64,000 bases of DNA from a virus: positions 1-64,000 of the IMG/VR virus record IMGVR_UViG_3300025131_000013; one strand, written 5' to 3'. Every line of letters begins with the position of its first letter. Position 1 is the stretch's first letter. The notes beneath the pieces are model-generated. The model ran no database searches. It saw nothing but the letters and a program-made list of their open reading frames with translations, and was not told the DNA's origin. Positions 1 to 50,667 of the stretch are shown in pieces. The position numbers and the translations under genes are program-made.

Positions 1-118
1 ACGAAGATGACGAAGATGACGAAGATGACGAAGATGACGAAGATGACGAAGATGATGACGATGACGATGACGAAGATGATGACGAAGATGATGACGAAGA
101 TGATGAGGATGAGGATGA
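1..118 (+). repeat. Coding (GAAGATGAC)n / GATGAC microsatellite encoding poly-Asp/Glu
   Basis: Directly visible tandem 9-mers and 3-mers. Confidence 0.9.
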
Positions 119-584
119 GCCTCCCGCCAAGCCCAAGGCCAAGGCCAAGGGCAAGGGCCGTCCCGACATCAGCCAGTTCACGAAGCGTGCTGAAGGTCCG
201 GTGGGACCGGGAATTGAAGATGGTCTCCCGTGTTGTGCCTACAACGCCCCCTGGCCGTCATCTAAACCACGCAATATTGCATTCGAGGAAATCCAGAAGG
301 CTGGCAAGAAGGGTCTGGGTAAGGACGCTTGGGTTGAGAATGTTGCCGCTCGGTTTAAGAAGGAGAAGCTCACCCAGTCTCCGACTTCCTCGGTTACAAC
401 CGTCCTGAAGGCTGGTCGTCGCGTGACGATTGAGCCCAAGGGCAAGGGCGAGAAGGTTCGCTACGTGGTTGTCTGGCCGCTGAAGAATTCGCCTGAGTTT
501 GCTGAGTATGATAAGGCCCAGGCTGCCGCCGCCAAGAAGGGTGCGAAGGGCAAGACGAAGGGAAAGGGCAAGTCCAAGAAGTAA
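3..584 (+). CDS. 5'-truncated acidic/basic putative winged-helix nucleoid-like protein (paralog A)
   Basis: Frame of ORF 201..584 is open back to the window start: (E/D)n tract, PAKPKAK linker, a domain shared with 5986..6564 and 18533..18862 (RNxAF/W..Q.AGK.G....W...RRV.I...YV.V.P), and a Lys-rich tail. Confidence 0.75.
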   Translation, partial: EDDEDDEDDEDDEDDEDDDDDDDEDDDEDDDEDDEDEDEPPAKPKAKAKGKGRPDISQFTKRAEGPVGPGIEDGLPCCAYNAPWPSSKPRNIAFEEIQKAGKKGLGKDAWVENVAARFKKEKLTQSPTSSVTTVLKAGRRVTIEPKGKGEKVRYVVVWPLKNSPEFAEYDKAQAAAAKKGAKGKTKGKGKSKK

Positions 585-671: not shown

Positions 672-2042
672 ATGCCTAGACTAGTAATAATTGGCGGGGG
701 AATCTCGGGTGCCTCTATGTTCTACCATATGAGGATTAATTATCCTGAATGGGAAGTAGTCCTCCTTGAGCGGGGAGACAAGGTAGGAGGGATCAATCGT
801 AGTATTGAAGTAGAAGGGCTGAGATTTAGCCTGGGCAGTCGCTACATCTTCGCTATCGACGAGTATACTAACGACCTAGTGAACGGCCTTGCAAACAATG
901 AATGCGTTCGCGGACAATCGAATCATTCCGTGTTCTATAAGAAGCGTTATATAGAGTTTCCTGTACAATTGAATACCTCAGGTCTTTCAATCAGAGAACG
1001 GGCAGAGTGTCTCTGGAAGCTATGGTGGAGAAAGAAGTGGGATAGCGAGACTATGTGGTCCTTTGAAGACTGGGCTATTTGCAACTTCGGAGAGGCTATT
1101 GCCCGCAAGTTCATCTTGAGTCACGTAACGAAATGTTGGCGGACGGATCCAGGTGAGATTGACTATACCGGATCGGCCAAGAAGGTGATGGAACCAAGAG
1201 TAAGGGATATGGTCTGGGGAGCACTCAGGCGTCAGAAGTCTTTTAAGAATCAGGAGTTCCTGTATCCCAAAGGTGGGATTGGGACTATTGTGGATGAGAT
1301 GATAGAGCGCGGTCAATGTATTGACGACAATAAGGGATATGGCTCAGTCAGCACTAAGTTTATGGTTCACTCGGTAGATATGAGTGAGAGACTGGTTGCC
1401 TCTGAGGACGGGCAAGAGGTTCCGTATGACGCCATAGTTTCGACTATCCCGATGCCTGGGCTAGTAAACTTGATCGACAACTCCAATATTGGAGTCCCGC
1501 AATCAGTCATCCTTGCCGGGGACAAACTTAGATACAATTGTATGGCCTCGGTGATGCTGGTATTTGAAGGAGATATATTAGATGGGCGCCAAGAGCATTT
1601 CATTTACGTTCCTGGAAAAGAGTATTGGTTCTCCAGAGTTTCAATTCCGAGAAACTTTGATCCTACTTCCTGCCCAGAAGGGTATACCTCCCTCCTGGTT
1701 GAAATATGTTACAATAGGGAGCAGAAAGGATTGCTCTTTAGAAAAGACTACCAAACGGAGTTGGCTACGAAGGTGGCTAAAGAAGTAAATGATCTGTTCC
1801 CGAAGCTCGACCTGACTGCTAGGCTTAAGGGCTTTGCAGTAGGGGTTATTGACCCGGCCTATATCATAACGGATGAGAACTATAAGGAGTCCAGAGCGGA
1901 TTGTTTACGGTATCTAGCTCAGAACGACATCCATATGCTTGGCCGCTTTGGGAAGTGGGACTGGAGTAGGATTGAAGACACTATCCCTGAGTCGAGGGAT
2001 CTATCTCATCAAATCGGTGGGAGGCTGTGGCTAAATGAGTAA
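672..2042 (+). CDS. FAD-dependent oxidoreductase (UDP-galactopyranose mutase / protoporphyrinogen oxidase-like)
   Basis: N-terminal IIGGGISG..LLE...VGG dinucleotide motif, YPKGGIG, VSTIPM, C-terminal GRFGKWDW. Confidence 0.8.
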   Translation: MPRLVIIGGGISGASMFYHMRINYPEWEVVLLERGDKVGGINRSIEVEGLRFSLGSRYIFAIDEYTNDLVNGLANNECVRGQSNHSVFYKKRYIEFPVQLNTSGLSIRERAECLWKLWWRKKWDSETMWSFEDWAICNFGEAIARKFILSHVTKCWRTDPGEIDYTGSAKKVMEPRVRDMVWGALRRQKSFKNQEFLYPKGGIGTIVDEMIERGQCIDDNKGYGSVSTKFMVHSVDMSERLVASEDGQEVPYDAIVSTIPMPGLVNLIDNSNIGVPQSVILAGDKLRYNCMASVMLVFEGDILDGRQEHFIYVPGKEYWFSRVSIPRNFDPTSCPEGYTSLLVEICYNREQKGLLFRKDYQTELATKVAKEVNDLFPKLDLTARLKGFAVGVIDPAYIITDENYKESRADCLRYLAQNDIHMLGRFGKWDWSRIEDTIPESRDLSHQIGGRLWLNE

Positions 2043-2943
2043 GAGACTCCTGTATGTTGAGCGGGCTAAGAAGAATCTGAATGCCACACATCGCCTCAAA
2101 GGGTTTATCCAAGCAGGATGGGAACCCTATCTGATCGATATTGCGAATGTGCGTCCCGATATAATAATGAAGCAAGCCAAGATGTTAGACCCTCACGCCG
2201 TCTTTATATCGGTGGCCGCTTCCTCTTGTCTTGAGGAACTGGAAGCCTTGCTTCCAAAGGCGTATATCTTCCTGTTCTTGGGAGATATATATGGTCCTTC
2301 GTTCAGGTATGTTGCGTCTTTGGTCCCTCATTTTGATTGTCTGCTGGTAAGTAACAATGATACCAGAATTCACAATTACTTCTTGAGTCGAGGGGTGAAG
2401 AGGGTTGAGGAGCATCAATGTGCTACAGATACTATTCATTATAAGGACAATGGGACCGAGCCAGACAAGGATCTCGTTTTTGCCGGGAATGTAGTCAGGA
2501 GAACAAAGGACTATGCCTTCAGGCGAGAGATGGTTACAGAGTTGGTTGATAAGGGGGTCTTGGGTGCTTTCGGTGCAGGATGGAATGAGAGAGCCAGACC
2601 TTGTAGCCTACTTCAATACCCGAAGATGATGACCCGAGGCAAGATCCAGTTGGTGATTAACGGGTTTGGATTCCTGAGGAATTGTTACTCAAATAGAACT
2701 TGGAACGCCTTAGCTATGGGCCGGCCAGTCCTTCACTATAGGACGAGGAACGCTGAGAGGTATTTCCGCGATGGATTTGACTTAGCTTTCTTCTCAAGCC
2801 GGGACGAGCTGTATTTGAAGATGAGGTGGCTCTTGGATAATCCGGATGAGGCTAAGGCCATAGGGCAAAGGGGGCGTAGGTTGGTAGAGAAGTGGCATAC
2901 CTACAAGAACCGGGGCGAGGAACTGTTGGAGCTATTAGGATGA
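2035..2943 (+). CDS. CgeB-like glycosyltransferase (Glyco_trans_1_2)
   Basis: DLVFAGN, FGAGW, YSNRTWNALAMG, LLDNPDEAKAIGQRGR..V...HTY..R; clear paralog of 36113..37126. Confidence 0.8.
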   Translation: MSKRLLYVERAKKNLNATHRLKGFIQAGWEPYLIDIANVRPDIIMKQAKMLDPHAVFISVAASSCLEELEALLPKAYIFLFLGDIYGPSFRYVASLVPHFDCLLVSNNDTRIHNYFLSRGVKRVEEHQCATDTIHYKDNGTEPDKDLVFAGNVVRRTKDYAFRREMVTELVDKGVLGAFGAGWNERARPCSLLQYPKMMTRGKIQLVINGFGFLRNCYSNRTWNALAMGRPVLHYRTRNAERYFRDGFDLAFFSSRDELYLKMRWLLDNPDEAKAIGQRGRRLVEKWHTYKNRGEELLELLG

Positions 2944-3129
2944 AATGCTATTTGGACTCAAGAAGTTGGCCCCGTTTTCAAGTTACCCTGACTTCATTCC
3001 GAGAGAGGCTTTTGAGATACAACAAGTGATAGGATGGATTATCTAAGGGAGGATTTCAAAAAGAAGGTTTCCCAGCAGTGTCGAGTGAAGGCGTTTACTG
3101 AATTTTTTTTTAGAGAGTGGAGGAAAGCA

Positions 3130-3948
3130 ATGGCTGGTGAATCAATAGGACTCACAGCATCATCTTCAGAGCAGTCAACGGTTCCGATAACAAACTCACC
3201 GATAGTGAAGCTGGTGTCTCCGCCAGATTCCTTCGATTGTCTTACTCAGATCTCGACGATGTGGTTGGCGGCCCATCATGTCGATCCGATTGCGATCCAA
3301 AAGACGCTGACTATCGAACAGATGCGGTCTATGATTTGGGACGAGGTGATCCCGATTCCTGCTTGGCAGACGGTGTTGGAGTGTGTTCGGTTTACGTTTG
3401 TGATCCACAATATGAGCCGACCGGCGCAGCAGCAGTTGACCCGACAGAGGCTTGGAGTTGGCTTCAATAACAACTCCCTTCGGATCATCAAGCTTGAGAC
3501 GTTCGCGGACGATGACCGGTATCGGACGCCTCCTGGTTTGAATGAGGAACAGCACAATTTATACCACAGCGCCATAGATCGGTCGCAAGAGGACTATGAG
3601 GAGCTTCTTAAGGCAGGTGTGAGTCAAGAATCAGCCCGAGGTGTCCTTCCTCAGAATATCCACTCGCCTACGTTGACGATGTTCTCCGATCTGCGCGCCC
3701 TCCGAGGGTTCATCTCCAAGAGGCTTTGCTACGAGGCCCAGGATGAGATGAATGAATTTGCTGTATCCCTTAAGAGAGAAGTTGATGAGTGGGATCACTG
3801 GTTCGGTGGACTGCTTTCCTTCCCTTGCTCCCGAGATAAGGAGTGTGTGATTGGTCCAGGTGCCGCTGAACGTTGCCCGCTTCCGTATGAGTGGAAGGGT
3901 GGTGCCAATAAGGGTGTTGTTATTACTTCCCATAAGGAGATCAGGTGA
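3130..3948 (+). CDS. thyX: FAD-dependent thymidylate synthase ThyX-like (variant motif)
   Basis: LE.VRFTF.I..MSR..QQQLTRQR..GF...SLR, GVSQESARGVLP, LRALRGFISKRLC..AQDEM; start at 3130 chosen after a purine-rich SD. Confidence 0.8.
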   Translation: MAGESIGLTASSSEQSTVPITNSPIVKLVSPPDSFDCLTQISTMWLAAHHVDPIAIQKTLTIEQMRSMIWDEVIPIPAWQTVLECVRFTFVIHNMSRPAQQQLTRQRLGVGFNNNSLRIIKLETFADDDRYRTPPGLNEEQHNLYHSAIDRSQEDYEELLKAGVSQESARGVLPQNIHSPTLTMFSDLRALRGFISKRLCYEAQDEMNEFAVSLKREVDEWDHWFGGLLSFPCSRDKECVIGPGAAERCPLPYEWKGGANKGVVITSHKEIR

Positions 3949-5435: not shown

Positions 5436-5792
5436 GTGGCCAAACGCAGAATTAAGAGAACAGCTTTATCCTCGACCAGATGTCCATATTGTGACTCCAG
5501 GCTTAAGCATCCGCTTGGAACTGGGCCAACGTCCAGGGAGATGGTGAAGCTAGGTAAAGAGCTTGGGATGAGGTTCAGTGACGCAAACCTCAAGCATTTT
5601 GTCCGGAAGGGATTGCTCCCAAGACCAATAAAGCGTCCGATGGTTATGAACGGCAAGCATACCTCTATTGGTGTGTTCCCTAAGATGGCCGGCAAACGCT
5701 TACGCATCTTGGCTAAGATGAAGTTGGTTCTTCATATGAGCGAGGCCCAGATCATAGATAAGTTTAGGGAGAAAGGGCTGATGTATGAGTAG
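5436..5792 (+). CDS. Zn-ribbon + MerR-like HTH DNA-binding protein
   Basis: CPYC, NLKHFVRKGLLPRP; AGGAGG SD. Confidence 0.6.
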   Translation: MAKRRIKRTALSSTRCPYCDSRLKHPLGTGPTSREMVKLGKELGMRFSDANLKHFVRKGLLPRPIKRPMVMNGKHTSIGVFPKMAGKRLRILAKMKLVLHMSEAQIIDKFREKGLMYE

Positions 5793-5848
5793 CCGATCCC
5801 CCTATATATAAGGAGTAAAGAAGTGGTGAGGGGCAGGAAAAAAAAGAT

Positions 5849-5877
5849 TAGGATCAGGGTTGCGGCTTTCGTATACT
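5849..5877 (+). promoter_or_regulatory. Conserved early promoter copy (TAGGAT-N17-TATACT)
   Basis: Motif match with an upstream A-tract. Confidence 0.75.
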
Positions 5878-5985
5878 TAGATAACGAAGGAAAGGGGGCA
5901 ACTAAGCCCCTGAAGGGTCGAACGGTGACGGACCCTTAAGGCCATAAGGCCCACGTCGCCAAGGGTAAACCGGATGGAGGTCCAG

Positions 5986-6564
5986 ATGCCCAAGACTACA
6001 AGTCGTAGGCGTGCCCCGTCTTCCAAGAAAGCCGTAGATGAGCTCGAAGCTGAGCTCGACGAGGCTCTGGAGGATGAGGAGTTGGAAGACCTCGATGAAG
6101 AGATCGAGGATGAGCTGGACGAGGACGAGGATGAGATCGAAGCGGAAGCTGAGGTCGAAACTCCTGCGAAGCCCAAGAAGGACAAGGCTCCGAAGGGATT
6201 CGTTTGCGCCTCTGTCGTCGAGAAGCACGGTGAGGGTGAAGCGAAGCCCTGCTACACCGCCATCGCTCCGTTCAGGACTTCGCCTGCTCGGAACCTGGCT
6301 TTCCAGACTCTCCAGGACGCCGGGAAGTCCGGCCTGAGTATGGACGACTGGATCGGCGAGGTCGCGACCACCTTTGAGGAGCAGAATATCTCTGGCTCCG
6401 CTAAGGGGGCTGTCTCCTTCATCCAGAAGGCGACGAAGCGCGTCACGATCCAGAAATTGGCCGGTGGCGACGACAAGGGTAACTACGTTGTCGTCGAGCC
6501 GTTGGCCGACAAGTCTCGTCGGACGTTCAATAAGAACGGGACTGTGCGGTCGAAGTCGAAGTAG
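5986..6564 (+). CDS. Acidic/basic putative winged-helix nucleoid-like protein (paralog B)
   Basis: Acidic tract, PAKPKK, RNLAFQTLQDAGKSGLSMDDW...KRVTIQ...NYVVVEP. Confidence 0.8.
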   Translation: MPKTTSRRRAPSSKKAVDELEAELDEALEDEELEDLDEEIEDELDEDEDEIEAEAEVETPAKPKKDKAPKGFVCASVVEKHGEGEAKPCYTAIAPFRTSPARNLAFQTLQDAGKSGLSMDDWIGEVATTFEEQNISGSAKGAVSFIQKATKRVTIQKLAGGDDKGNYVVVEPLADKSRRTFNKNGTVRSKSK

Positions 6565-11386: not shown

Positions 11387-11602
11387 ATGGTCGTAACGAT
11401 TGATAAGGAACGCCGAGCCAAAGGTGAGAAGCTATTCAACGAAGGATGGCGGATCGCCAGAACCTTCCGAGTCCCGAAGCAGGGACGCCATAAGGGGTGG
11501 GTTAAACTTAAGAAGCACGGAGCGGGTGGTATGCTCCAGATCCCGCCTGAAACCGCTGAGCGAATCAAGGAGCTTGAAGAAGATGAAGGTTCTGATTCTT
11601 GA
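11387..11602 (+). CDS. Hypothetical protein
   Basis: GGAGGT SD after a promoter copy. Confidence 0.65.
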   Translation: MVVTIDKERRAKGEKLFNEGWRIARTFRVPKQGRHKGWVKLKKHGAGGMLQIPPETAERIKELEEDEGSDS

Positions 11603-11954
11603 CGATAACATCGACGTAGCCTTGTCAGTCTCTCAGATGACTAAGGCTTGTCTTCCTGAAGCGGAGATCCTGGTGTTCTACGATTCGCTTGAGGCGTTAC
11701 GGAAGATGACCGGCGATATTGATATCTTTATCACCGACTTCGATATGCCGGGGTTGGACGGAGTAGCGATGGCGGTCAACGCTAAGACGATGAATAAGAA
11801 AACAGCGGTTGTGATGATTAGCGGATTGCCTCAGACAGAGATCGAGGATACTCCTCGACGGACAGAAGATTTTAGGTCAAGCGTCGATTGGTTTATTGCT
11901 AAGCCGGTCAACTTGGCGGACCTTCAACGGACGATTGGAGAGATAGTCGAGTGA
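11583..11954 (+). CDS. Stand-alone response regulator receiver (CheY-like)
   Basis: MKVLILDD, FITDFDMPGLDG (phospho-Asp), MISG, FIAKP. Confidence 0.85.
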   Translation: MKVLILDDNIDVALSVSQMTKACLPEAEILVFYDSLEALRKMTGDIDIFITDFDMPGLDGVAMAVNAKTMNKKTAVVMISGLPQTEIEDTPRRTEDFRSSVDWFIAKPVNLADLQRTIGEIVE

Positions 11955-17757: not shown

Positions 17758-18124
17758 GGGGGTTTTGATGCAGGCAATTCTCAGTGGTACCAATGGCTAA
17801 AAACATCTTTTCCCGTAGGGAGGAAACATAGCAACCAATGGGCAAAAAGAAATTCGGGATGAGAAATGATGGGAAGGAAAGAAAGGTCAGCCCTAAAGAA
17901 TGTGAGGTATGCTGAGGGAGGTGTAGGACTAAGGTGGATGACGTATACTTAATGCTATGTAGCGTATATCGTCCTATATGTAGGAGTGCGTCTATGGCGT
18001 AGGGTTACGGACTATGACTGGATGTGGTATGATGACGACTGTAATATGATCTGCCTAGTCTTTACTGCTGTAGTTATGCTCGTGGGGTGGTTAGGACTAG
18101 AGTGCCTTATGTTCCTCTCCCACT

Positions 18125-18199
18125 CTCCCCGCTGAATCCTCTCATTATCAATCTAGCTCCCCGCTGAATCCTCTCATTATCAATCTAGCTCCCCGCTGA
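18125..18199. repeat. Perfect 32-bp tandem repeat (2.3 copies)
   Basis: CTCCCCGCTGAATCCTCTCATTATCAATCTAG twice, then CTCCCCGCTGA. Confidence 0.95.
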
Positions 18200-18229
18200 T
18201 GTGAGACACCGCTCGACTTCCCTCCTGGC

Positions 18230-18478
18230 ACTCAGTCACACACCCACACTGGGTTGATTGGATGATTGGCACGATGCCCAGCTGGCTGTGTTTTCAGTCA
18301 ACCGGCAGTAATCACAATTGACGTGCCTTATCAGCACCAAACCGCACCAAACAGGACTGGCCATTCAGTCAACCAGGCAAGTTTGGGTTGCTGAATGGTG
18401 AATTTAACCATCCAGTCAACCATGCAAGTCTGGGTTGTTGAATGTTGAATGGTGGATGCTGCTGGTTGTTGGTTGGGT
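18230..18478. repeat. CA/TG-rich block 1 with CAGTCAAC motifs and an imperfect 47-bp tandem duplication
   Basis: CAGTCAAC at 18295, 18366 and 18413; the last two start near-identical units. Confidence 0.8.
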
Positions 18479-18491
18479 CCGGCCCGGATGT

Positions 18492-18530
18492 GGAAAGGGG
18501 GTCGACCTTGGAGCTGGCCGACCCCCTTCC
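18492..18530 (-). terminator. Hairpin at the 3' end of the minus-strand gene
   Basis: GGAA(A)GGGGGTCG/CGACCCCCTTCC. Confidence 0.55.
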
Positions 18531-18532
18531 TG

Positions 18533-18862
18533 CTAGTTCTGCTTCTTCTCCCGTGGCTTACCGGGAGCTACCGCCACATAGTTCCCGTTCTCCAATCGGG
18601 TAACTACCACCCGCCTCTTCGCACGGACGACGAAATTGGCGTAGAATAGCGGGTTGGCGATACCCGCCTCGGTCAGCTTTTCGAGCCAATCGACCTTACT
18701 GATTCCCGTTTTTCCCGCGTCCTGGAGAATCTGCCAGGCTCGGTTGCGACCCTCGCTGCGCTTAAACGGTGATCGCGCGTTGTGGTACGGGAGTGCGGAA
18801 CTGCCGAGACTCTCAGCGAGACTCGGAACGACCTGCGGCTGCTTCTTACTCTGGGTGCCCAT
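18533..18862 (-). CDS. Putative winged-helix nucleoid-like protein, minimal form (paralog C)
   Basis: RNRAWQILQDAGKTGISKVDW...RRVVV...GNYVAVAP; GAGGAG SD before MGTQ. Confidence 0.8.
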   Translation of the reverse strand: MGTQSKKQPQVVPSLAESLGSSALPYHNARSPFKRSEGRNRAWQILQDAGKTGISKVDWLEKLTEAGIANPLFYANFVVRAKRRVVVTRLENGNYVAVAPGKPREKKQN

Positions 18863-18910
18863 ATCGGACTCCTCATTTTTAGGTCTGAGGCCTATCCCCG
18901 ACCTGCATTT

Positions 18911-18939
18911 AATATAACGGATTCGCACTGAGATTCCTA
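18911..18939 (-). promoter_or_regulatory. Conserved early promoter copy (TAGGAA-N17-TATATT), minus strand
   Basis: Reverse complement matches the motif; upstream of paralog C. Confidence 0.75.
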
Positions 18940-18972
18940 ATGAAATCTTCGCTTTCAGCGAAAAAAGTTTCG

Positions 18973-19157
18973 CTGGATGATGCCCGATATATCAGAGATT
19001 TCAGTCAACGGGTGGCGTGGGCTGTGGTGTGCGGTGTTGTTGTATAGGGATTTCAGTCAACGCCGGGCGCTGATGTTGCGCGCGGTGTTGTATAGGCATC
19101 AAGCTGCACCAACGCGCCCCGGACATATGCTTGATGGTGGCTGATGGTGGCTGGTGG
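18973..19157. repeat. CA/TG-rich block 2 between two divergent promoters
   Basis: GATTTCAGTCAACG at ~18997 and ~19049, GCGGTGTTG..TATAGG twice, TGATGGTGGC repeats. Confidence 0.75.
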
Positions 19158-19179
19158 AAAAAAAAAGTTTCTGTTGGGC

Positions 19180-19208
19180 TAGGATTCCAGTTGTCGATTC
19201 GCTATCTT
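19180..19208 (+). promoter_or_regulatory. Conserved early promoter copy (TAGGAT-N17-TATCTT)
   Basis: Motif match with an upstream A-tract. Confidence 0.8.
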
Positions 19209-19251
19209 TAAATAGGTAGAGAATCCGCTCTACCTAAACGAAGGGAACGAG

Positions 19252-19458
19252 ATGGATATCCCTATTCTTAGGGGGATCGTAAAGTCCAGCGTATTAGAGC
19301 TAGACGGTTGCGTTAACGAATACGGAGTAGAGGTTGATGTATGCTCCGGAGGCGGCCCCAACGCGGGAGGCGTTACGATCCAGCTTCGGATTCCAGATCG
19401 AGACGAAATCTCGATTAGACTTCAGAACGACGGAATCTTCACGGTAGTCGAACTCTAA
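19252..19458 (+). CDS. Small early protein
   Basis: Follows a promoter copy; followed by a UUCG hairpin. Confidence 0.65.
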   Translation: MDIPILRGIVKSSVLELDGCVNEYGVEVDVCSGGGPNAGGVTIQLRIPDRDEISIRLQNDGIFTVVEL

Positions 19459-19465
19459 CCTCAAC

Positions 19466-19487
19466 GGGCGGGACTTCGGTCCCGCCC
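19466..19487 (+). other. GC-rich cUUCGg hairpin
   Basis: GGGCGGGAC-TTCG-GTCCCGCCC. Confidence 0.7.
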
Positions 19488-19505
19488 AACGAAAGCGAGG
19501 GCGAT

Positions 19506-19760
19506 ATGGTGGATGGAGTAAAGGAAATGTTCGAGGGACTTTGCGGGTTTCTAAACGAGGTTACTGAAGGATGGTTCCTTGATATTAATCCTGTGTCGCC
19601 GATAACCGGGACTGTGACCCTTATCCCGAACGGAGAGGGATGGGTTGAGATGGTGATTTCAGTCGAAGGTAAGGAGTTTTCGGTGAAGGTGGACGCCTAC
19701 GGAAAGACCGGATGTGAGTATGGAGATCCTTCCCCCGAACGTAATTGCTTTGGAGGATAG
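19506..19760 (+). CDS. Small early protein
   Basis: GAGG SD; ORF track. Confidence 0.6.
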   Translation: MVDGVKEMFEGLCGFLNEVTEGWFLDINPVSPITGTVTLIPNGEGWVEMVISVEGKEFSVKVDAYGKTGCEYGDPSPERNCFGG

Positions 19761-19770
19761 GACGAGGAAG

Positions 19771-19948
19771 AACGATCCGTTGACTGGGATATTACTTATT
19801 CAGTCAACGGATCGTTGTTCGAGCTGGTAGGTATTGCTGGCTGCTGCTGGTTGCTGGTTGGCTTTCAGCCAGTCAGTCAGCTTCCAGTCAGTCAGCCAGT
19901 CAGCTTTCAGTCAGTCAGTCAGAAATCACAACCGGCATAGGGTAAGCA
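19771..19948. repeat. CA/TG-rich block 3: 16-bp inverted repeat, then (G/T)CTG and (CAGT)n tracts
   Basis: AACGATCCGTTGACTG (19771-86) / CAGTCAACGGATCGTT (19801-16); TG-rich 19824-19860 followed by CAGT repeats 19866-19921. Confidence 0.85.
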
Positions 19949-19966
19949 CGTTAGAAAAACTAAGTC

Positions 19967-20000
19967 CTACTACTTAGCCTTAAGCGATACTAAGTAGTAG
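19967..20000 (+). repeat. 34-bp palindromic site L (11-12-11)
   Basis: CTACTACTTAG-CCTTAAGCGATA-CTAAGTAGTAG. Confidence 0.85.
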
Positions 20001-20187
20001 TGGGAAAAATCTACCGGAAGAAAATTCTTAAGAAAAAGATTAGTTTCGCTTAAGGGAAAAATCTTCCTCTACGAAAATTATAAGACGTTCTACTACTTTT
20101 CCGCTTAAAGCGAAATCTATACCTAAAAGCGAAAAAAAGGCGAAAAAAGACGAGAAAATTTTTTTTACGAAAAGCGAAAAAAAACGC

Positions 20188-20216
20188 TAGACTCGACTAG
20201 TTTAATACCCTATACT
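20188..20216 (+). promoter_or_regulatory. sigma70-like promoter TAGACT-N17-TATACT free of CA/TG
   Basis: Near-consensus boxes, 17-nt spacer, upstream A-tracts. Confidence 0.7.
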
Positions 20217-20429
20217 TAGACCTACGAACCCTAACGAAAGGAAACGAAGAAAAGAGTAAAAAGAGTAGACTCTAGGCGAAGCGGGAACTTAGGCTTTCGC
20301 CCTTACTACCTAGAGTCCTACCGCCGGATTATCGGGATAACCCTTAAATATCCGGCTTAAAAGGTTCCTAGCTTACCGTAAAAAGCTAGACTCGATTTAT
20401 TTTTTTTTACTTCTCTTTAGGAGAAAAAA

Positions 20430-20978
20430 ATGTCTCTCGATATTACCCCCGTAGAGGCCGCCGTAGAGGTCCCCGTAGTCGGAGACTCTAAGGACGCCGG
20501 GATATACGCCTATAACCTTTTCGAAGTCGCCCGGATCGCCGTAGCGCGGCGTCCTAAAGACGCGAAAAAGGTTAAGGTAGGAACCGAAGATCGAGGCGGT
20601 TATACTAGTCCCGATCGATACGCGTCCTTCCGGCTCGCGTTTTCCCTCTCTCTAACGAATTCCGAAGCTAAACGGGTAGCTATCGTAGCGCGCTTCTCCG
20701 AGACGTTAAAGATTCGGAAACGGATCGTAGACGCCGGAATTCCCGTAGGGAAGGGTTATACCTATAAGGAACTCGCGTCTACCGCCGCCGCTCTACGCTA
20801 CGGCGAAAAGTACTCCGGGTTCGTAGCGTTTCGACCTAACGGTACTCGATTCGCCGTAGCGGAAAAAAACGAGCGTTTCTTTCTTTACGTAGTAAACGCG
20901 AACGGAGAGGTTTTCCCTAACCTTCCCGAATCGCTTAAGGTTAAGGAGGTCGAGGGGGAGCTAATAAAGGTAGAGTAA
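20430..20978 (+). CDS. 182-aa protein encoded without CA/TG dinucleotides (no Cys, His, Gln, Trp or internal Met)
   Basis: AGGAG SD, own promoter and terminator; composition is visible in the translation. Confidence 0.85.
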   Translation: MSLDITPVEAAVEVPVVGDSKDAGIYAYNLFEVARIAVARRPKDAKKVKVGTEDRGGYTSPDRYASFRLAFSLSLTNSEAKRVAIVARFSETLKIRKRIVDAGIPVGKGYTYKELASTAAALRYGEKYSGFVAFRPNGTRFAVAEKNERFFLYVVNANGEVFPNLPESLKVKEVEGELIKVE

Positions 20979-20987
20979 TAAATTCGA

Positions 20988-21021
20988 CTCCCGGTCCTAA
21001 CGGACCGGGGGTTTTTTTTTT
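20988..21021 (+). terminator. Intrinsic terminator
   Basis: CCCGGTCC-TAAC-GGACCGGG followed by T10. Confidence 0.9.
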
Positions 21022-21046
21022 AGCCTATAGGGAAGTTCCTTCCCTT

Positions 21047-21080
21047 CGACTACTTAGTATCGCTTAAGGTTAAGTAGAAC
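21047..21080 (-). repeat. 34-bp site R, inverted copy of site L
   Basis: CGACTACTTAG-TATCGCTTAAGG-TTAAGTAGAAC is 30/34 identical to the reverse complement of 19967..20000. Confidence 0.85.
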
Positions 21081-21290
21081 TAAGCAGAACGGGGTAGGGG
21101 TTAAACGCTAATTTCTTAGCTTTTAACGTCTCAATTGGTCTGCTTACATACACGTGCAATTTTTTGGTGAAATTTGCTTCAGGAGGGTGTTAGTGAGTAG
21201 CGAGGAATAAGAGGGCCACAGCACACCCAACGGTGACGATTACCGAACCTGGCGATTCAGCAATGATGGCGATTAGCGCGTTTAGGAGTT

Positions 21291-21548
21291 TCATAAGTCA
21301 ACATACTTTCCGATGCCAACTCTGCAAGGAGGCATCATAGGGTTGATTTTGAGCTCAAGCTGTTCGAACACTTCGTAGGCTTGAGCGTGGTTGGCCATGA
21401 GGAAGGAGACTATCTCAAGATCGGGGGTGATCTCTCTGAAGACCTCCTCAGATGGGGCCATAGCCTCAGTTGGCTTCTTACCGTGCTCCCGCATCTGTTC
21501 GATTAGGAGTATGAGTTTGTGGAGTGTAGCGCGGTTGTTTGGGGTCAT
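21291..21548 (-). CDS. Hypothetical protein
   Basis: Coupled (ATGA overlap) to 21545..22000. Confidence 0.6.
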   Translation of the reverse strand: MTPNNRATLHKLILLIEQMREHGKKPTEAMAPSEEVFREITPDLEIVSFLMANHAQAYEVFEQLELKINPMMPPCRVGIGKYVDL

Positions 21549-22000
21549 AGGTCTACCTTGCTGTCATCCTTTATAGCGAATAGTCCTGCTGGCTTTGGAT
21601 TTCTGAGTCGAGTGACTAACTGGACGCTATTGCCAGTGTAATAACCTCCCTGACTGATGTCGACAAATATATCTCTGTCTTCCTCATCAGTCCGGGTATG
21701 GAATCTTTTGTTTCTATTTGGGCGATGATAGTCAGGAGTGAGGCTTATCCTAAGTCCACCCTTCTCTTCGCCGGCATCCCCACTGGATGTATCTTCAATA
21801 CACCACTCTGAGCCATTGTTGAGAGTGATATAGAACTTTCGACGATTCTTGGCGAATCGCTTTTTCTTGTCCTCTTGAGGCGGCTTGATGCGTCTCCTCG
21901 GGGGATTCCGACTATTGTAATGTTCACGTCTGTTCTTTTCTTCAATGCTTTCTTTGCGGTCACCTCTAACCATATCCCAAATCTTCATCTTGTTCTCCAT
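21545..22000 (-). CDS. Basic hypothetical protein
   Basis: ORF track. Confidence 0.6.
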   Translation of the reverse strand: MENKMKIWDMVRGDRKESIEEKNRREHYNSRNPPRRRIKPPQEDKKKRFAKNRRKFYITLNNGSEWCIEDTSSGDAGEEKGGLRISLTPDYHRPNRNKRFHTRTDEEDRDIFVDISQGGYYTGNSVQLVTRLRNPKPAGLFAIKDDSKVDL

Positions 22001-22252
22001 TGAGGGTTCAAAGACTTTTTTTAGTAATTAGCTATACCATGCTGACGTCTGATGAATAGTGAAGGCCAGAGCTTTTCCAAGCCCTGGCCTTCTCAGGAGG
22101 TCCATATAGCCACGGCATTAGTCGCTTCATCCCGTAACTAAAATAAGTATACAAAGTTGTAGCTCGTGTAACGATCCGGGTCAGTCCGATGTATATTTTG
22201 TTGACGAGAACAAACCATCCAATGCTTTTAAAAAGTAGGAGAAATAATTAAG

Positions 22253-22663
22253 ATGCTTACTTTAAAGCAAAGACAAGAGCGAAAAGCTGAGCTAAGTGCT
22301 ATGAATAAGATTTATCTGGTGAATGAATTGGTTGACGCCGAAGACACAATTGCTCGCAAAGAAATGAACATCGCTGATAATGTTGATAGGTTGTCAGAAT
22401 ATAAGGGTAAGCTCAGAAACAATGAGCGTGTTGTTGTTACCCGTAAGAAGCGCAAGGGTGACATGGATAAAATGGCCATCAAGAAATGGAAGGAATTTAC
22501 TAAACTGCAGATATGGGTTAATATCTTGGCTGCTATACCCAACATACTGGGTGCAGCAGCCACAAACGAGTACACCCATTTTATGTTGGCACAGCTATTT
22601 ACTAATGCCGTTATTGGACCGGCCATTTTCTACTACCAAAAGAAGCAGGAGAGATTTGGATAG
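22253..22663 (+). CDS. Coiled-coil/membrane hypothetical protein
   Basis: AGGAG SD; hydrophobic C-terminus. Confidence 0.6.
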   Translation: MLTLKQRQERKAELSAMNKIYLVNELVDAEDTIARKEMNIADNVDRLSEYKGKLRNNERVVVTRKKRKGDMDKMAIKKWKEFTKLQIWVNILAAIPNILGAAATNEYTHFMLAQLFTNAVIGPAIFYYQKKQERFG

Positions 22664-22804
22664 ACCTAAGAAAGCTGACGGCAATGTTATTTTTTTGTTT
22701 TACCCGGCTAGGCAGTATTTATTTGACTGGTATAGGGAATCGAGACCGATGATGCCTTAAGGGTTTGGGTAATGGCTGACCTTAGCAGAAATTAAGGAAG
22801 GTGA

Positions 22805-24622
22805 ATGTCTAGTTTGACCCACAAAAAAAAGAAAAGAAACAAAAAGACTGATCCTGGGGCTTTGCTTCGGGGTGAGCTTTCCAAGCACTTTGGCCTAGAT
22901 GTTGATGAGAGAGCAAACCTTGGATCGGAAAGCGAGGCTAAACAGTTCTTAGAAGAGCAAGATGAGATTTGGGATGAATATCCGGTGACATCAAGTATCT
23001 TCTTTGAGGATTGGATTCGAGAAAAGATGTACCCAATCCAACAGGAGCTGTGCGATGCCGTGCTGGGTGTACTTCCTACAGAGTGGCCTAACGACTTTGA
23101 GGAGGCATTTGCCTTATGGGGTAAGGGGTCAGGTAAGGATAGAACGTCTGCTAAGATGTGTGTCTATCAAGGATACCGGCTGATGTGTATGAGAGACCCT
23201 CACGCCTTCTTTAAGCAGAGCCAGATAGACATCGCCAATATGTCGAGGAATTCTCGACAGGCCAAGAAGGTTTATTTCAATAACCTCAAGGAGGTGGTCC
23301 GAAGATGTTTTGATCCCGCTACCAAGAAGAATTGGTTTGAGGAGCGGGGTGTTGATCTTCGGGAGCAGAAAGATATTCAGTCCGCCGAGATCCGTTTATG
23401 TGGGGCTCACAACGAAGCCCACCATATAGAGCAGGATATAACCTGTCATTCTTTGGATTCAGAGCAGAATACGGGTGAGGGCTTTAACCTGTTCTTCTCG
23501 GTCTTGGATGAGCTTGGAGACTTTGCTGTAGGTAATGGAATAGAGCTTCACGAGGCTATCACAGAAACAACAGTCTCCCGGTATGAGGGTTATGGTAAGG
23601 TAATTGCGATCTCGTTCATGTATAATAAGAGCGACCCATTCCAAATTATCTGGGCTCAGACTAAGGGTGATCCAAAGGTCTTCCAATCTGGACCCCACGC
23701 TACATGGGATGTGAATCTTGGAAGATCAAAAACTTCATTCTCCAGACACTACAAGCGCAATCCTATTCGTGCGCGTAGAGTTTATGAATGCAAAGTGGAT
23801 GATAAACGTTCAGGACTTATCAAGCTCAGATCGGTGGTGGAAAGGATTTTTAATAACGGTGATGTCCTCAATCCCGTTGCCGGTGGTTCTCCTGTCGTCG
23901 GATATTATCCTGAGATTATATCATCACCTGAGACTGTGAAGGCCTTGAGGTTTACGGAGCATTTCAAGCCTAAATCTTCCGCGTGCTATACGGTCCATAT
24001 TGATCTTGCTAAGGGTAAGGCCAAAGGTGACTCCGTAGGATTCTGTATGGCTCACCCGGAGAGAATGAAAGGCTATATAGATGAGGGGATGAAGAAGCTC
24101 TGGGTTCAGATGGGGAATGCTGTCGATACTGAGGAGGAAGTATCCAAAGGCGTAGTGTTCGATCTTATGCTAGGTATAAGGGGAGCAGACGCGACTCAGG
24201 AAGTCCGGTTGGCCGAGATTCGACAACTCATCTATCGTCTCAAGTTTGAGATGAGCTTTAATATCATCAAGGTTACAATGGATGGCTACCAATCAGCTGA
24301 TACGATACAGGAGTTAAATGAAAGGGGAATCCCAACCGAACTGTTATCGGTAGATAGAACTCCAGACCCTTACGAATCTCTTGTTGATTTAGCTTACCAG
24401 GGGCTTGCAAAGGCTTACCCTCATGTTGTTGCCCTAAGAGAGCTAGATGAGGTCGACAATGATGGTAAAACAGGCAAAATCGACCATCCTGCCCTGTCTC
24501 TTGTCCGAATGGCAGAGGAAGGGTTTGAAAAAGGTAGCAAAGATGTTTCGGACGCTATGGCGGGGGCCAGTTATACGTGTATTAGGGACATTCCACTTGA
24601 TTCGGGTGTCTTCTTTGGATAA
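22805..24622 (+). CDS. terL: Terminase large subunit
   Basis: Walker A WGKGSGKD, Walker B SVLDE, nuclease motifs HIDLA, MDGYQS, KIDHP...SKDVSDA. Confidence 0.92.
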   Translation: MSSLTHKKKKRNKKTDPGALLRGELSKHFGLDVDERANLGSESEAKQFLEEQDEIWDEYPVTSSIFFEDWIREKMYPIQQELCDAVLGVLPTEWPNDFEEAFALWGKGSGKDRTSAKMCVYQGYRLMCMRDPHAFFKQSQIDIANMSRNSRQAKKVYFNNLKEVVRRCFDPATKKNWFEERGVDLREQKDIQSAEIRLCGAHNEAHHIEQDITCHSLDSEQNTGEGFNLFFSVLDELGDFAVGNGIELHEAITETTVSRYEGYGKVIAISFMYNKSDPFQIIWAQTKGDPKVFQSGPHATWDVNLGRSKTSFSRHYKRNPIRARRVYECKVDDKRSGLIKLRSVVERIFNNGDVLNPVAGGSPVVGYYPEIISSPETVKALRFTEHFKPKSSACYTVHIDLAKGKAKGDSVGFCMAHPERMKGYIDEGMKKLWVQMGNAVDTEEEVSKGVVFDLMLGIRGADATQEVRLAEIRQLIYRLKFEMSFNIIKVTMDGYQSADTIQELNERGIPTELLSVDRTPDPYESLVDLAYQGLAKAYPHVVALRELDEVDNDGKTGKIDHPALSLVRMAEEGFEKGSKDVSDAMAGASYTCIRDIPLDSGVFFG

Positions 24623-50582: not shown

Positions 50583-50667
50583 CCTTTCGGATCGGACGGT
50601 GTTCGGACTGCTCAGGGGCTGCAAAGCTCCTGAGCAATCCTTCTTTTCCCTATCGGAAGGTTGTTAG

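What the first reader, a model, noticed from the sequence alone, without database searches (positions are those of the whole stretch)
17760..22250. Integrated model: genome-end control region with a graded CA/TG architecture
Between the early genes and TerL lies about 4.5 kb of mostly non-coding DNA. Read leftwards from ~21100 it runs: zero-CA/TG cassette, CA/TG-dense block, low-CA/TG operon, dense block, wHTH paralog, dense block, then the bulk early genes. This gradient fits a physical terminus entering the cell in stages, each stage expressing protective or regulatory proteins before more target-bearing DNA is exposed. This is a hypothesis assembled from the separate observations above.
Basis: inference. 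Interest (0 to 1): 0.8.

Follow-up and report, generated by a model that had tools for sequence, protein, structure and literature searches.

The report
CA/TG-free phage gene cassette
An uncultured, probably marine phage keeps one small self-contained gene, promoter to terminator, free of the two-base DNA step CA/TG, next to hairpin repeats unusually rich in that step; something still unidentified must read that step, and the proposed "genome end entering in stages" remains untested.

Summary
Window 19947-21085 (1.14 kb) holds three CA/TG steps against about 135 expected. One of them is the ATG of its only gene. The longest CA/TG gap anywhere else in the 93.5-kb genome is 61 bp. The three flanking "dense" blocks and the "low" genes are also extreme against same-length windows of the genome. 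A relative (TerL 82% identical) has a homologous cassette with no CA/TG over 1,597 bp, so its gene has no canonical start codon and probably starts at ATT. Three distant homologues of the 182-aa protein also lack Cys, His, Gln, Trp and internal Met; two others retain two to four such residues. The constraint is strand-symmetric and covers non-coding DNA, so it acts on duplex DNA. My best reading (about 0.4) is that the cassette escapes an agent that reads TG/CA, most likely the phage's own TG-context thymidine hypermodification, which is documented in Pbunavirus F8. A hexamer-palindrome signature shared with F8 supports this. Strong TGCA/CATG avoidance and the lack of a void in F8 argue against it. 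Physical termini and staged entry could not be tested. This scan has already found CA/TG-free early cassettes in soil and E. coli phages. This case adds a probably marine lineage and a new protein family.

The parts
18125..18188 (+). Two exact tandem copies of a 32-bp unit at the left edge of dense block 1
   Evidence: the repeat finder family D5, 100% identity
18176..18500 (.). Dense block 1: the most CA/TG-rich stretch of the genome (21.2 per 100 bp). It is an array of imperfect hairpins carrying TCAGTCAAC motifs and TG-rich arms.
   Evidence: density; repeat families D1, D2, D8; RNA fold z -3.1; motif positions 18294, 18365
18533..18928 (-). Small basic winged-helix-like protein (P0027), probably starting at the internal ATG. 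It is a paralog of ORF 5974-6564. It is conserved in the relative (58% identity) but in the opposite orientation.
   Evidence: paralogy E 1e-14; inverted orthologue
18976..19165 (.). Dense block 2: two 52-bp tandem units (GATTTCAGTCAACG ... GGTGTTGTATAGG) followed by TGGTGG repeats that include one exact GCTGGTGG
   Evidence: families D2, D3, D11, D14, D17; (z -2.7)
19252..19760 (+). Two small acidic ORFs (68 and 84 aa). The first lies in the second most CA/TG-depleted stretch of the genome (19166-19500, 5.1 per 100 bp). No homologue was found in the relative.
19767..19930 (.). Dense block 3: a near-perfect 20-bp hairpin with the TCAGTCAAC motif on both arms (19767-19820), then a long hairpin with a CTG-rich arm pairing to a CAGT-repeat arm
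   Evidence: inverted pair I2, direct family D10; z -7.1 and -4.0
19947..21085 (+). CA/TG-void cassette, a complete transcription unit
19970..20007 (.). Left arm of the inverted repeat bounding the cassette (38 nt, 87% complementary to 21040-21077). It contains the CTTAAG-centred motif.
   Evidence: inverted pair I1
20188..20216 (+). Sigma-70-like promoter TAGACT-N17-TATACT, itself free of CA/TG. The GCTAGACT element recurs at 20385-20392 and twice in the relative's cassette.
   Evidence: (family D12); read directly
20430..20981 (+). Gene for P0001 (182 aa), with an AGGAGA ribosome-binding site 7 nt upstream and a TAATAA double stop. The protein has no Cys, His, Gln, Trp or internal Met.
20986..21022 (+). 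Intrinsic terminator: 12-bp stem (8 G-C pairs) followed by a T run
21040..21077 (.). Right arm of the bounding inverted repeat. The sequence just beyond it (ACATACACG ... AATTTTTTG) is shared with the relative.
   Evidence: compared by eye
21291..22000 (-). Leftward operon of two genes (85 and 151 aa) running towards the cassette from a divergent region upstream of terS. The relative has about 14 small leftward ORFs at this place.
22253..24622 (+). Candidate small terminase (22253-22663, assigned by position only; 59% identical in the relative) and large terminase (22805-24622)

Best explanation
The core of the region is a self-contained early transcription unit. It has bounding inverted repeats, a sigma-70-like promoter, CTTAAG-centred operator-like sites, a ribosome-binding site, one gene for a small protein that may be a winged-helix DNA binder, and a terminator. 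Selection keeps its duplex DNA free of the step TG/CA.

It sits in a regulatory hub whose other genes are partly depleted in CA/TG and whose intergenic hairpin arrays are rich in it.

Proposed mechanism (inferred, not shown): an agent reads the TG/CA step on double-stranded DNA. The most likely agent is a bulky thymidine hypermodification that the phage itself places on T in TG, as described for Pbunavirus F8 and 14-1. The cassette would then be the one kilobase-scale stretch of virion DNA that stays plain. Host RNA polymerase and the unit's own operators could use it at once after entry, and modification-dependent nucleases could not see it. Its product would then act on the rest of the genome.

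Shown: the void, its sharp limits, its functional signals, and its conservation across deep divergence. Inferred: the identity of the agent, the timing of expression and the role of the protein.
For: 1. The void is far beyond chance and unique in the genome.
2. It is strand-symmetric and covers about 480 bp of leader, the gene and the terminator. No other di- or trinucleotide is missing. The constraint therefore acts on duplex DNA and on exactly CA/TG.
3. The relative G001 has a homologous cassette with 0 CA/TG in 1,597 bp. Its gene therefore has no ATG, GTG or TTG and probably starts at ATT after an AAGGGGA site. The proteins are only 46-51% identical, so the void has been maintained for a long time.
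4. Distant homologues P0005, P0010 and P0018 have none of the five amino acids that cannot be encoded (P 1e-10 to 1e-12 each). P0004 and P0006 have 2 and 4.
5. A dinucleotide-level agent of this specificity is documented: hypermodified T in a TG motif replaces about a quarter of T in Pbunavirus F8 and 14-1 (PMC12191111).
6. Hexamer palindromes containing CA/TG are spared while the others are avoided. Observed/expected ratios, with versus without CA/TG, are 0.83/0.66 here, 0.89/0.65 in G001, 0.96/0.73 in F8 and 0.98/0.75 in Wifcevirus Bas101. Six controls show differences of -0.06 to +0.16.
7. Bas101, a distant relative of Pbunavirus, has a 1.8-kb CA/TG-depleted island.
8. The early region carries an operon of an amine-oxidase-like flavoprotein, a glycosyltransferase and a ThyX-like protein, plus a cluster of a GT2 glycosyltransferase, a DUF5675 protein and a SAM methyltransferase among the replication genes. 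The ThyX-like protein is 29% identical to that of F8.
Against: - There is no chemical or read-level evidence of any modification in this phage.
- F8, the phage with the proven TG mark, has no void. Its longest gap is 88 bp.
- TGCA and CATG are strongly avoided here and in G001 (observed/expected 0.37 and 0.53; 0.23 and 0.52). That is unexpected if TG-containing sites were shielded.
- No HMUDK, TET/JBP or TGT/DpdA homologue was found. F8 also lacks HMUDK, so that absence says little.
- The palindrome signature rests on two independent lineages and modest per-genome P values (0.008-0.07). phiKMV, a control, shows a difference of 0.16.
- Early timing of expression is assumed, not shown.
- An earlier check in this scan priced the 'own mark' reading at 27 in 100.
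Confidence: 0.38

Rival explanations
1. The cassette lies at the genome end that enters the cell first. A host-encoded nuclease or binder reads CA/TG on unmodified DNA. The void unit, and then the partly depleted units, express protective or regulatory proteins before the target-rich bulk of the DNA is exposed, as in T5 first-step transfer.
For: - The alternation of void or low units with dense blocks is real and partly conserved.
- The location just upstream of the terminase genes is a common site for cos or pac.
- GCTGGTGG and related TGG-rich runs on the plus strand are oriented to stop RecBCD coming from the right (the orientation rule is my own knowledge).
- Earlier scan notes place similar islands near the physical ends of E. 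coli phages (not checked by me).
Against: - No host agent with a two-base specificity on unmodified DNA is known to me.
- The rest of the genome has a normal CA/TG content (rho 0.97).
- Two independent assemblies span the region without a break, and the 93.5-kb contig ends elsewhere.
- Gene order and orientation within the hub differ in the relative.
- The cassette is full of ordinary 4- to 6-bp palindromes such as CTTAAG, CTAG and TCGA, so it does not avoid restriction sites in general.
Confidence: 0.2
2. Self-immunity. P0001 itself binds or acts on CA/TG steps of duplex DNA, for example as a coating or silencing protein. Its own gene must lack targets so that it stays expressed. The CA/TG-rich arrays next to it would be its high-affinity sites.
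For: - The void travels with this protein family across distant homologues.
- The fold search returns only winged-helix DNA binders, all weakly.
- Several homologues carry Lys/Ala/Pro-rich tails like those of linker histones.
- Void and dense arrays lie side by side.
Against: - The fold evidence is below significance (Z at most 3.7).
- Other voids found by this scan hold unrelated genes, which points to an agent outside the cassette.
- The rest of the phage genome would also be bound.
Confidence: 0.12
3. The cassette is a mobile or invertible element bounded by inverted repeats, and its odd composition reflects a foreign origin or recombinase requirements.
For: - Inverted repeats bound the cassette in both phages: 38 nt at 87% and 25 nt at 80%.
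- The neighbouring wHTH module is inverted between the two phages.
Against: - No resolvase/invertase or tyrosine recombinase is found in the genome.
- There is a single copy, at the same locus and in the same orientation in both phages.
- A foreign origin does not explain a total dinucleotide void, and no organism with such a composition is known.
- The promoter and terminator look native to the unit.
Confidence: 0.05
4. The void removes the protospacer-adjacent motif of a CRISPR system with a 5'-TG motif (Cas12c-like, which silences by binding), so the gene can be neither targeted nor silenced.
For: - Motif recognition is one of the few known dinucleotide-level, strand-symmetric readouts. The TG motif of Cas12c is my own knowledge.
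- A binding-only effector would make the position of the target matter.
Against: - Selection per site would be weak, yet the void is absolute over 1.1 to 1.6 kb.
- The same void occurs in phages of very different hosts.
- No host information is available.
Confidence: 0.05
5. The constraint acts on RNA or translation, for example by removing all NTG start codons or escaping a ribonuclease that cuts at CA or UG.
For: Without TG on either strand there is no ATG, GTG, TTG or CTG in any of the six frames (seen directly in the sequence).
Against: The void is equally strict for CA and TG on the sense strand, in the promoter region, and beyond the terminator up to the inverted repeats. A one-strand RNA constraint predicts asymmetry.
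Confidence: 0.03

Closest known systems
CA/TG-depleted early-gene islands noted earlier in this scan (soil phages; E. coli Wifcevirus; Serratia Myosmarvirus)
   Same: The same dinucleotide is missing and whole transcription units are purged. Proteins lose Cys, His, Gln, Trp and Met, and ATG is sometimes replaced by ATT or ATC. I confirmed a 1.8-kb island in Wifcevirus Bas101, with 1-6 CA/TG per 100 bp against a mean of 14.
   Different: Here the void is absolute. It holds a single gene of a different family, is bounded by inverted repeats, abuts CA/TG-rich hairpin arrays, and occurs in a probably marine lineage. Its position relative to the genome ends is unknown.
TG-context hypermodified thymidine of Pbunavirus F8 and 14-1 (Yee et al. 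2025, PMC12191111)
   Same: It has the same two-base specificity on both strands. F8 shows the same sparing of CA/TG-containing hexamer palindromes. Both phages have a DnaE-type polymerase and a ThyX-like protein.
   Different: F8 has no CA/TG void. No modification has been shown in this phage. TGCA and CATG are avoided here but hardly at all in F8.
Phage T5 first-step-transfer (pre-early) region and the T7 leading region with gene 0.3 (own knowledge)
   Same: These are early DNA with host-type promoters that lacks the target of an attack and encodes the first functions expressed.
   Different: They avoid specific 6-bp restriction sites, not a dinucleotide. Their position at a physical end and their first entry are proven, whereas neither could be tested here.
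Invertible segments bounded by inverted repeats (Mu G segment, Hin; own knowledge)
   Same: A segment of about 1 kb between inverted repeats of 25-38 nt.
   Different: No invertase is present. The cassette has the same orientation in both phages, and such segments show no compositional void.
ACA-free mRNAs that escape the MazF ribonuclease (own knowledge)
   Same: A gene purged of a short motif so that it is spared by a sequence-specific agent.
   Different: That constraint acts on one RNA strand. Here it is strand-symmetric and includes non-transcribed DNA.

Membership tests
T5-like first-step-transfer / leading-end early region | Lies at a physical genome end or in a terminal repeat and enters first | not testable with these tools
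   No reads were available. The contig ends lie in an acidic-repeat gene, and two assemblies span the region.
T5-like first-step-transfer / leading-end early region | Lacks recognition sites of host restriction enzymes | tested here: inconclusive
   All CA/TG-containing sites are absent, but the cassette holds 5 CTTAAG, 7 CTAG, 11 TCGA, 4 GATC and 2 GTAC. The host and its enzymes are unknown.
T5-like first-step-transfer / leading-end early region | Own host-type promoters and early expression | tested here: inconclusive
   A promoter-like TAGACT-N17-TATACT, a ribosome-binding site and a terminator are present. The number of promoter-like sites in the region does not exceed the shuffled expectation, and timing is unknown.
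Phages with TG-context thymidine hypermodification (Pbunavirus type) | Hypermodified T replacing T in TG in virion DNA | not testable with these tools
   This needs LC-MS, restriction digests or raw long-read signal.
Phages with TG-context thymidine hypermodification (Pbunavirus type) | Restriction sites containing TG/CA are relieved from avoidance | tested here: inconclusive
   Hexamer palindromes give observed/expected 0.83 with CA/TG against 0.66 without, like F8 at 0.96 against 0.73. Six controls show differences of -0.06 to +0.16. However, the tetramers TGCA (0.37) and CATG (0.53) are strongly avoided.
Phages with TG-context thymidine hypermodification (Pbunavirus type) | Biosynthetic genes for the modification | tested here: inconclusive
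   The pathway in F8 is not defined. HMUDK_hel is absent from this genome, from F8 and from Bas101. A ThyX-like protein is shared at 29% identity, and early glycosyltransferases are present.
Invertible segment / IS-like element | Terminal inverted repeats | tested here: met
   38 nt at 87% here; 25 nt at 80% in the relative.
Invertible segment / IS-like element | Cognate recombinase or transposase | tested here: not met
   No match to Resolvase or Phage_integrase in the genome. The only gene in the cassette has no Pfam or PHROG match.
Invertible segment / IS-like element | Several copies or both orientations | tested here: not met
   There is a single copy in the genome, at the same locus and in the same orientation in the relative.
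Winged-helix DNA-binding proteins (for P0001) | Three-helix bundle plus beta-hairpin wing | tested here: inconclusive
   The AlphaFold2 model has pLDDT 72 and pTM 0.72. Foldseek found nothing at E below 0.001. The wide structural search lists mostly winged-helix domains, but with Z at most 3.7.

The most novel reading that the evidence does not exclude
Kilobase-scale CA/TG voids are the sequence footprint of a widespread phage DNA mark specific to the TG dinucleotide. Each such phage keeps one unmarked 'ignition' unit that plain host machinery can read. In this lineage that unit encodes a winged-helix protein that reads or adapts to the marked genome. If so, the void together with the sparing of CA/TG-containing palindromes would reveal hypermodified genomes from sequence alone, including in uncultured marine and soil phages.
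Probability: 0.3. Interest if true: 0.85.

Novelty: new variant of a known kind. Interest (0 to 1): 0.72.

Why it matters
A whole gene unit has given up five amino acids, and in a relative its ATG start, to avoid one two-base DNA step. That implies a strong, unidentified reader of TG/CA on duplex DNA. It would also point to the first gene such phages express. Either way the question becomes testable in cultured analogues such as Wifcevirus. I found no published description of such voids.

Tried and rejected
Searches that gave nothing
- Pfam and PHROGs found nothing for P0001 or its neighbours.
- Foldseek against the PDB, a PDB sequence-profile search and the ESM Atlas gave nothing usable.
- blastn of the cassette against 50,697 phage records found no match.
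For those homologues the void is therefore inferred from amino-acid content only.
- Rfam and tRNA scans of the region were empty.
- One accession recalled from memory (MK373798) turned out to be an unrelated phage.

Ideas rejected
- Hypermutation like fungal RIP (CA to TA): the gene is intact, conserved and has working signals.
- Assembly or base-calling artefact: two independent assemblies with diverged sequences both show the void.
- A longer hidden motif: no trinucleotide beyond those containing CA/TG is missing.
- A trait of the wider clade: complete or near-complete genomes of three phages with TerL 35-39% identical have no void.
- A special replication link to Pbunavirus: DnaE-type polymerases are widespread in phages.

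Full report
**Source.** The window is bases 1-64000 of a 93,475-bp IMG/VR virus record that CheckV rates as complete. Both contig ends lie inside a gene made of acidic Asp/Glu repeats. The contig ends are therefore an assembly break, not physical ends. Nearly all genes are on the plus strand. Replication and nucleotide-metabolism genes run from about 65.7 kb, across the contig junction, to 17.76 kb. Terminase and structural genes run from 22.25 to 65.1 kb. The finding covers the gap between these two blocks.

**Observation.**
- CA+TG make up 11.9% of dinucleotide steps in the window.
- Positions 19947-21085 hold three such steps in 1,139 bp, one of which is the ATG of the only gene. The gaps of 430 and 654 bp compare with a maximum of 61 bp anywhere else in the genome.
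- No other dinucleotide class shows anything similar. Inside the void no trinucleotide is missing beyond those containing CA/TG.
- CG and TA, the one-transition neighbours of CA/TG, are enriched (rho 1.76 and 1.32).
- Against same-length windows outside the region, the three dense blocks (21.2, 18.9 and 18.5 per 100 bp) fall in the top 0-0.4%. The low segments (8.4, 5.1 and 8.8) fall in the bottom 0-2%.
- About half of 17760-22250 is coding, so "mostly non-coding" overstates the case. The pattern is an alternation that deepens towards the void rather than a smooth gradient.

**Anatomy of the cassette**
- Inverted repeats 19970-20007 and 21040-21077 (38 nt, 87% complementary).
- Several CTTAAG-centred sites (TCGCTTAAGG, with or without TTA).
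- A promoter-like TAGACT-N17-TATACT at 20188-20216, itself free of CA/TG.
- An AGGAGA ribosome-binding site.
- ORF 20430-20978 (P0001, 182 aa) ending in TAATAA.
- A strong terminator at 20986-21022.
- The protein has no Cys, His, Gln, Trp or internal Met. These are the five residues whose codons all contain CA or TG.

**Conservation.** A TerL search of IMG/VR found one close relative, G001 (TerL 82% identical).
- Its homologous cassette has no CA/TG at all over 1,597 bp.
- The open frame there is 2035-2712 of locus L004 and contains no ATG, GTG or TTG. An ATT seven bases after an AAGGGGA site is the likely start.
- The two proteins are 46-51% identical, so silent sites are saturated and the void must be actively maintained.
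- The relative's cassette is also bounded by inverted repeats. It shares the right-hand junction sequence and the GCTAGACT promoter element.
- An exhaustive profile search of 1.8 billion representative proteins found five distant homologues. P0005, P0010 and P0018 have none of the five residues (P 1e-10 to 1e-12). P0004 and P0006 have two and four. One of them comes from Tara Oceans, which is the only direct indication of a marine setting.
- Three phages with TerL 35-39% identical have no void anywhere in their genomes.

**Surroundings**
- The dense blocks are arrays of long imperfect hairpins in which a TG-rich arm pairs with a CA-rich arm (fold z -2.7 to -7.1).
- They carry the motif TCAGTCAAC five times between 18.3 and 19.8 kb. 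A sixth copy lies at 65,644, just before the first early gene. The relative has related CAGTCA-bearing repeats. These look like regulatory sites.
- The wHTH gene (18533-18928, minus strand) is a paralog of ORF 5974-6564. It is conserved in the relative but inverted there.
- To the right of the void, a leftward operon runs from a divergent region upstream of terS. It holds two genes here and about 14 small ORFs in the relative. The hub is therefore prone to rearrangement.

**What the constraint acts on.** The void is equally strict for CA and TG on one strand. It includes the promoter, about 480 bp of leader (about 780 bp in the relative) and the DNA beyond the terminator. It overrides the start codon. 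It is therefore a constraint on duplex DNA, not on mRNA, codons or the protein. Hypermutation is excluded by the intact, conserved gene and its signals. An artefact is excluded by two independent, diverged assemblies.

**Candidate agents.** This scan had already noted CA/TG-free early cassettes in soil phages and in E. coli Wifcevirus phages. It also pointed to Yee et al. 2025. I read that paper. Pbunavirus F8 and 14-1 carry a sugar-type hypermodified thymidine in a TG motif that replaces about a quarter of T (PMC12191111). My tests gave mixed results.
- F8 itself has no void. Its longest gap is 88 bp.
- Wifcevirus Bas101, called a distant relative of Pbunavirus and notably resistant to restriction in PMC11990801, has a 1.8-kb island with 1-6 CA/TG per 100 bp against a mean of 14.
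- Hexamer palindromes with CA/TG are spared while the others are avoided in this phage, G001, F8 and Bas101. Observed/expected ratios are 0.83/0.66, 0.89/0.65, 0.96/0.73 and 0.98/0.75.
- Six controls show no such gap or a smaller one: G003 0.89/0.89, G004 0.92/0.93, G005 0.87/0.86, T7 0.65/0.62, T1 0.69/0.75 and phiKMV 0.61/0.45. This supports shielding of TG-containing sites, but it rests on only two independent lineages.
- Against shielding, the tetramers TGCA and CATG are strongly avoided here and in G001 (0.37 and 0.53; 0.23 and 0.52), next to GTAC at 0.11.
- No HMUDK, TET/JBP or TGT homologue is present. F8 and Bas101 also lack HMUDK, so that absence says little.
- Possible modification genes are an operon of an amine-oxidase-like flavoprotein, a glycosyltransferase and a ThyX-like protein at 672-3948, and a cluster of a GT2 glycosyltransferase, a DUF5675 protein and a SAM methyltransferase at 71.3-73.6 kb. 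The ThyX-like protein is 29% identical to that of F8.

**The protein.** No sequence family matches P0001. An AlphaFold2 model built on seven sequences (pLDDT 72) has three to four helices followed by a beta hairpin. The wide structural search returned mostly winged-helix domains, all at Z 3.7 or lower, which is below significance. Several homologues have Lys/Ala/Pro-rich N-terminal tails. A DNA-binding role is plausible but not shown.

The architecture is real and partly conserved, and the idea that the units must avoid a CA/TG-directed agent fits the data. The central claim, a terminus near 21.1 kb with entry in stages, could not be tested. Two assemblies run through the region without a break. 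The order and orientation of the parts differ in the relative. The cassette is transcribed away from the early genes. There is no recombinase that would make it an invertible or mobile element.

**Probabilities.** The general statement, that selection keeps this unit free of a duplex TG/CA reader, I hold at about 0.8.
- the phage's own TG mark, about 0.38;
- a host agent met by a leading end, 0.2;
- the cassette's own product, 0.12;
- a mobile or invertible element, 0.05;
- avoidance of a CRISPR TG motif, 0.05;
- an RNA- or translation-level constraint, 0.03;
- the remainder unassigned.

**Novelty.** I found no published description of such voids, but this scan has found them before on other DNA. 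This case adds a probably marine lineage, a new protein family tied to the void, the abutting CA/TG-rich hairpin arrays, and the palindrome-sparing test.

Noticed in passing
window 18533-18928 versus L010/L004 (merged coordinates 5670-6017): The wHTH gene module lies in opposite orientation in the two related phages, while its neighbours keep their order. This is an inversion between CA/TG-rich hairpin arrays.
   Followed up: partly
window 1-200 and genome 93276-93475: Both contig ends lie in GAT/GAC/GAA repeats that encode an acidic Asp/Glu tract. The assembly probably broke in a repeat of a circular or permuted map, so the contig ends are not physical ends.
   Followed up: partly
window 672-3948: A tightly packed operon of an amine-oxidase-like flavoprotein, a glycosyltransferase (Glyco_trans_1_2) and a 304-aa ThyX-like protein. 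In both this ThyX-like protein and its F8 relative, the position of the canonical RHR motif (as I remember it) reads RQR or RTR. This is a lead for an altered activity, not a tested claim.
   Followed up: partly
whole genome G000 and relative G001: GTAC is almost absent (observed/expected 0.11 and 0.09), and TGCA and CATG are strongly avoided. This suggests hosts with restriction systems that cut 4-bp sites.
   Followed up: no
whole genome G000: GCTGGTG occurs 18 times on the plus strand and never on the minus strand. The exact E. coli Chi octamer GCTGGTGG occurs 4 times, all on the plus strand, once in dense block 2 (19150).
   Followed up: no
L012 1640-1655 (genome 65640-65655): A sixth copy of GATTTCAGTCAACG lies just upstream of the first gene after the tail-fibre block. 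This links the motif of the dense blocks to the start of the early genes.
   Followed up: partly
L004 2121-2228: The relative's cassette gene carries five 18-bp tandem repeats that encode an acidic (DTEAVD)n tract. These are absent from P0001 and are themselves free of CA/TG.
   Followed up: no
NC_007810 (F8) 50600-51050: The strongest local CA/TG dip in F8 (12-13 per 300 bp against about 37 expected) lies inside hypothetical gene gp066. It is not a void.
   Followed up: no
window 22805-24622: The large terminase has no Pfam match at E 0.01. It is recognised only through 26-28% identity to annotated terminases of Streptomyces, Microbacterium and Gordonia phages.
   Followed up: no
window 11400-11954: A phage-encoded response-regulator receiver domain protein (184 aa) among the early/middle genes.
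   Followed up: no
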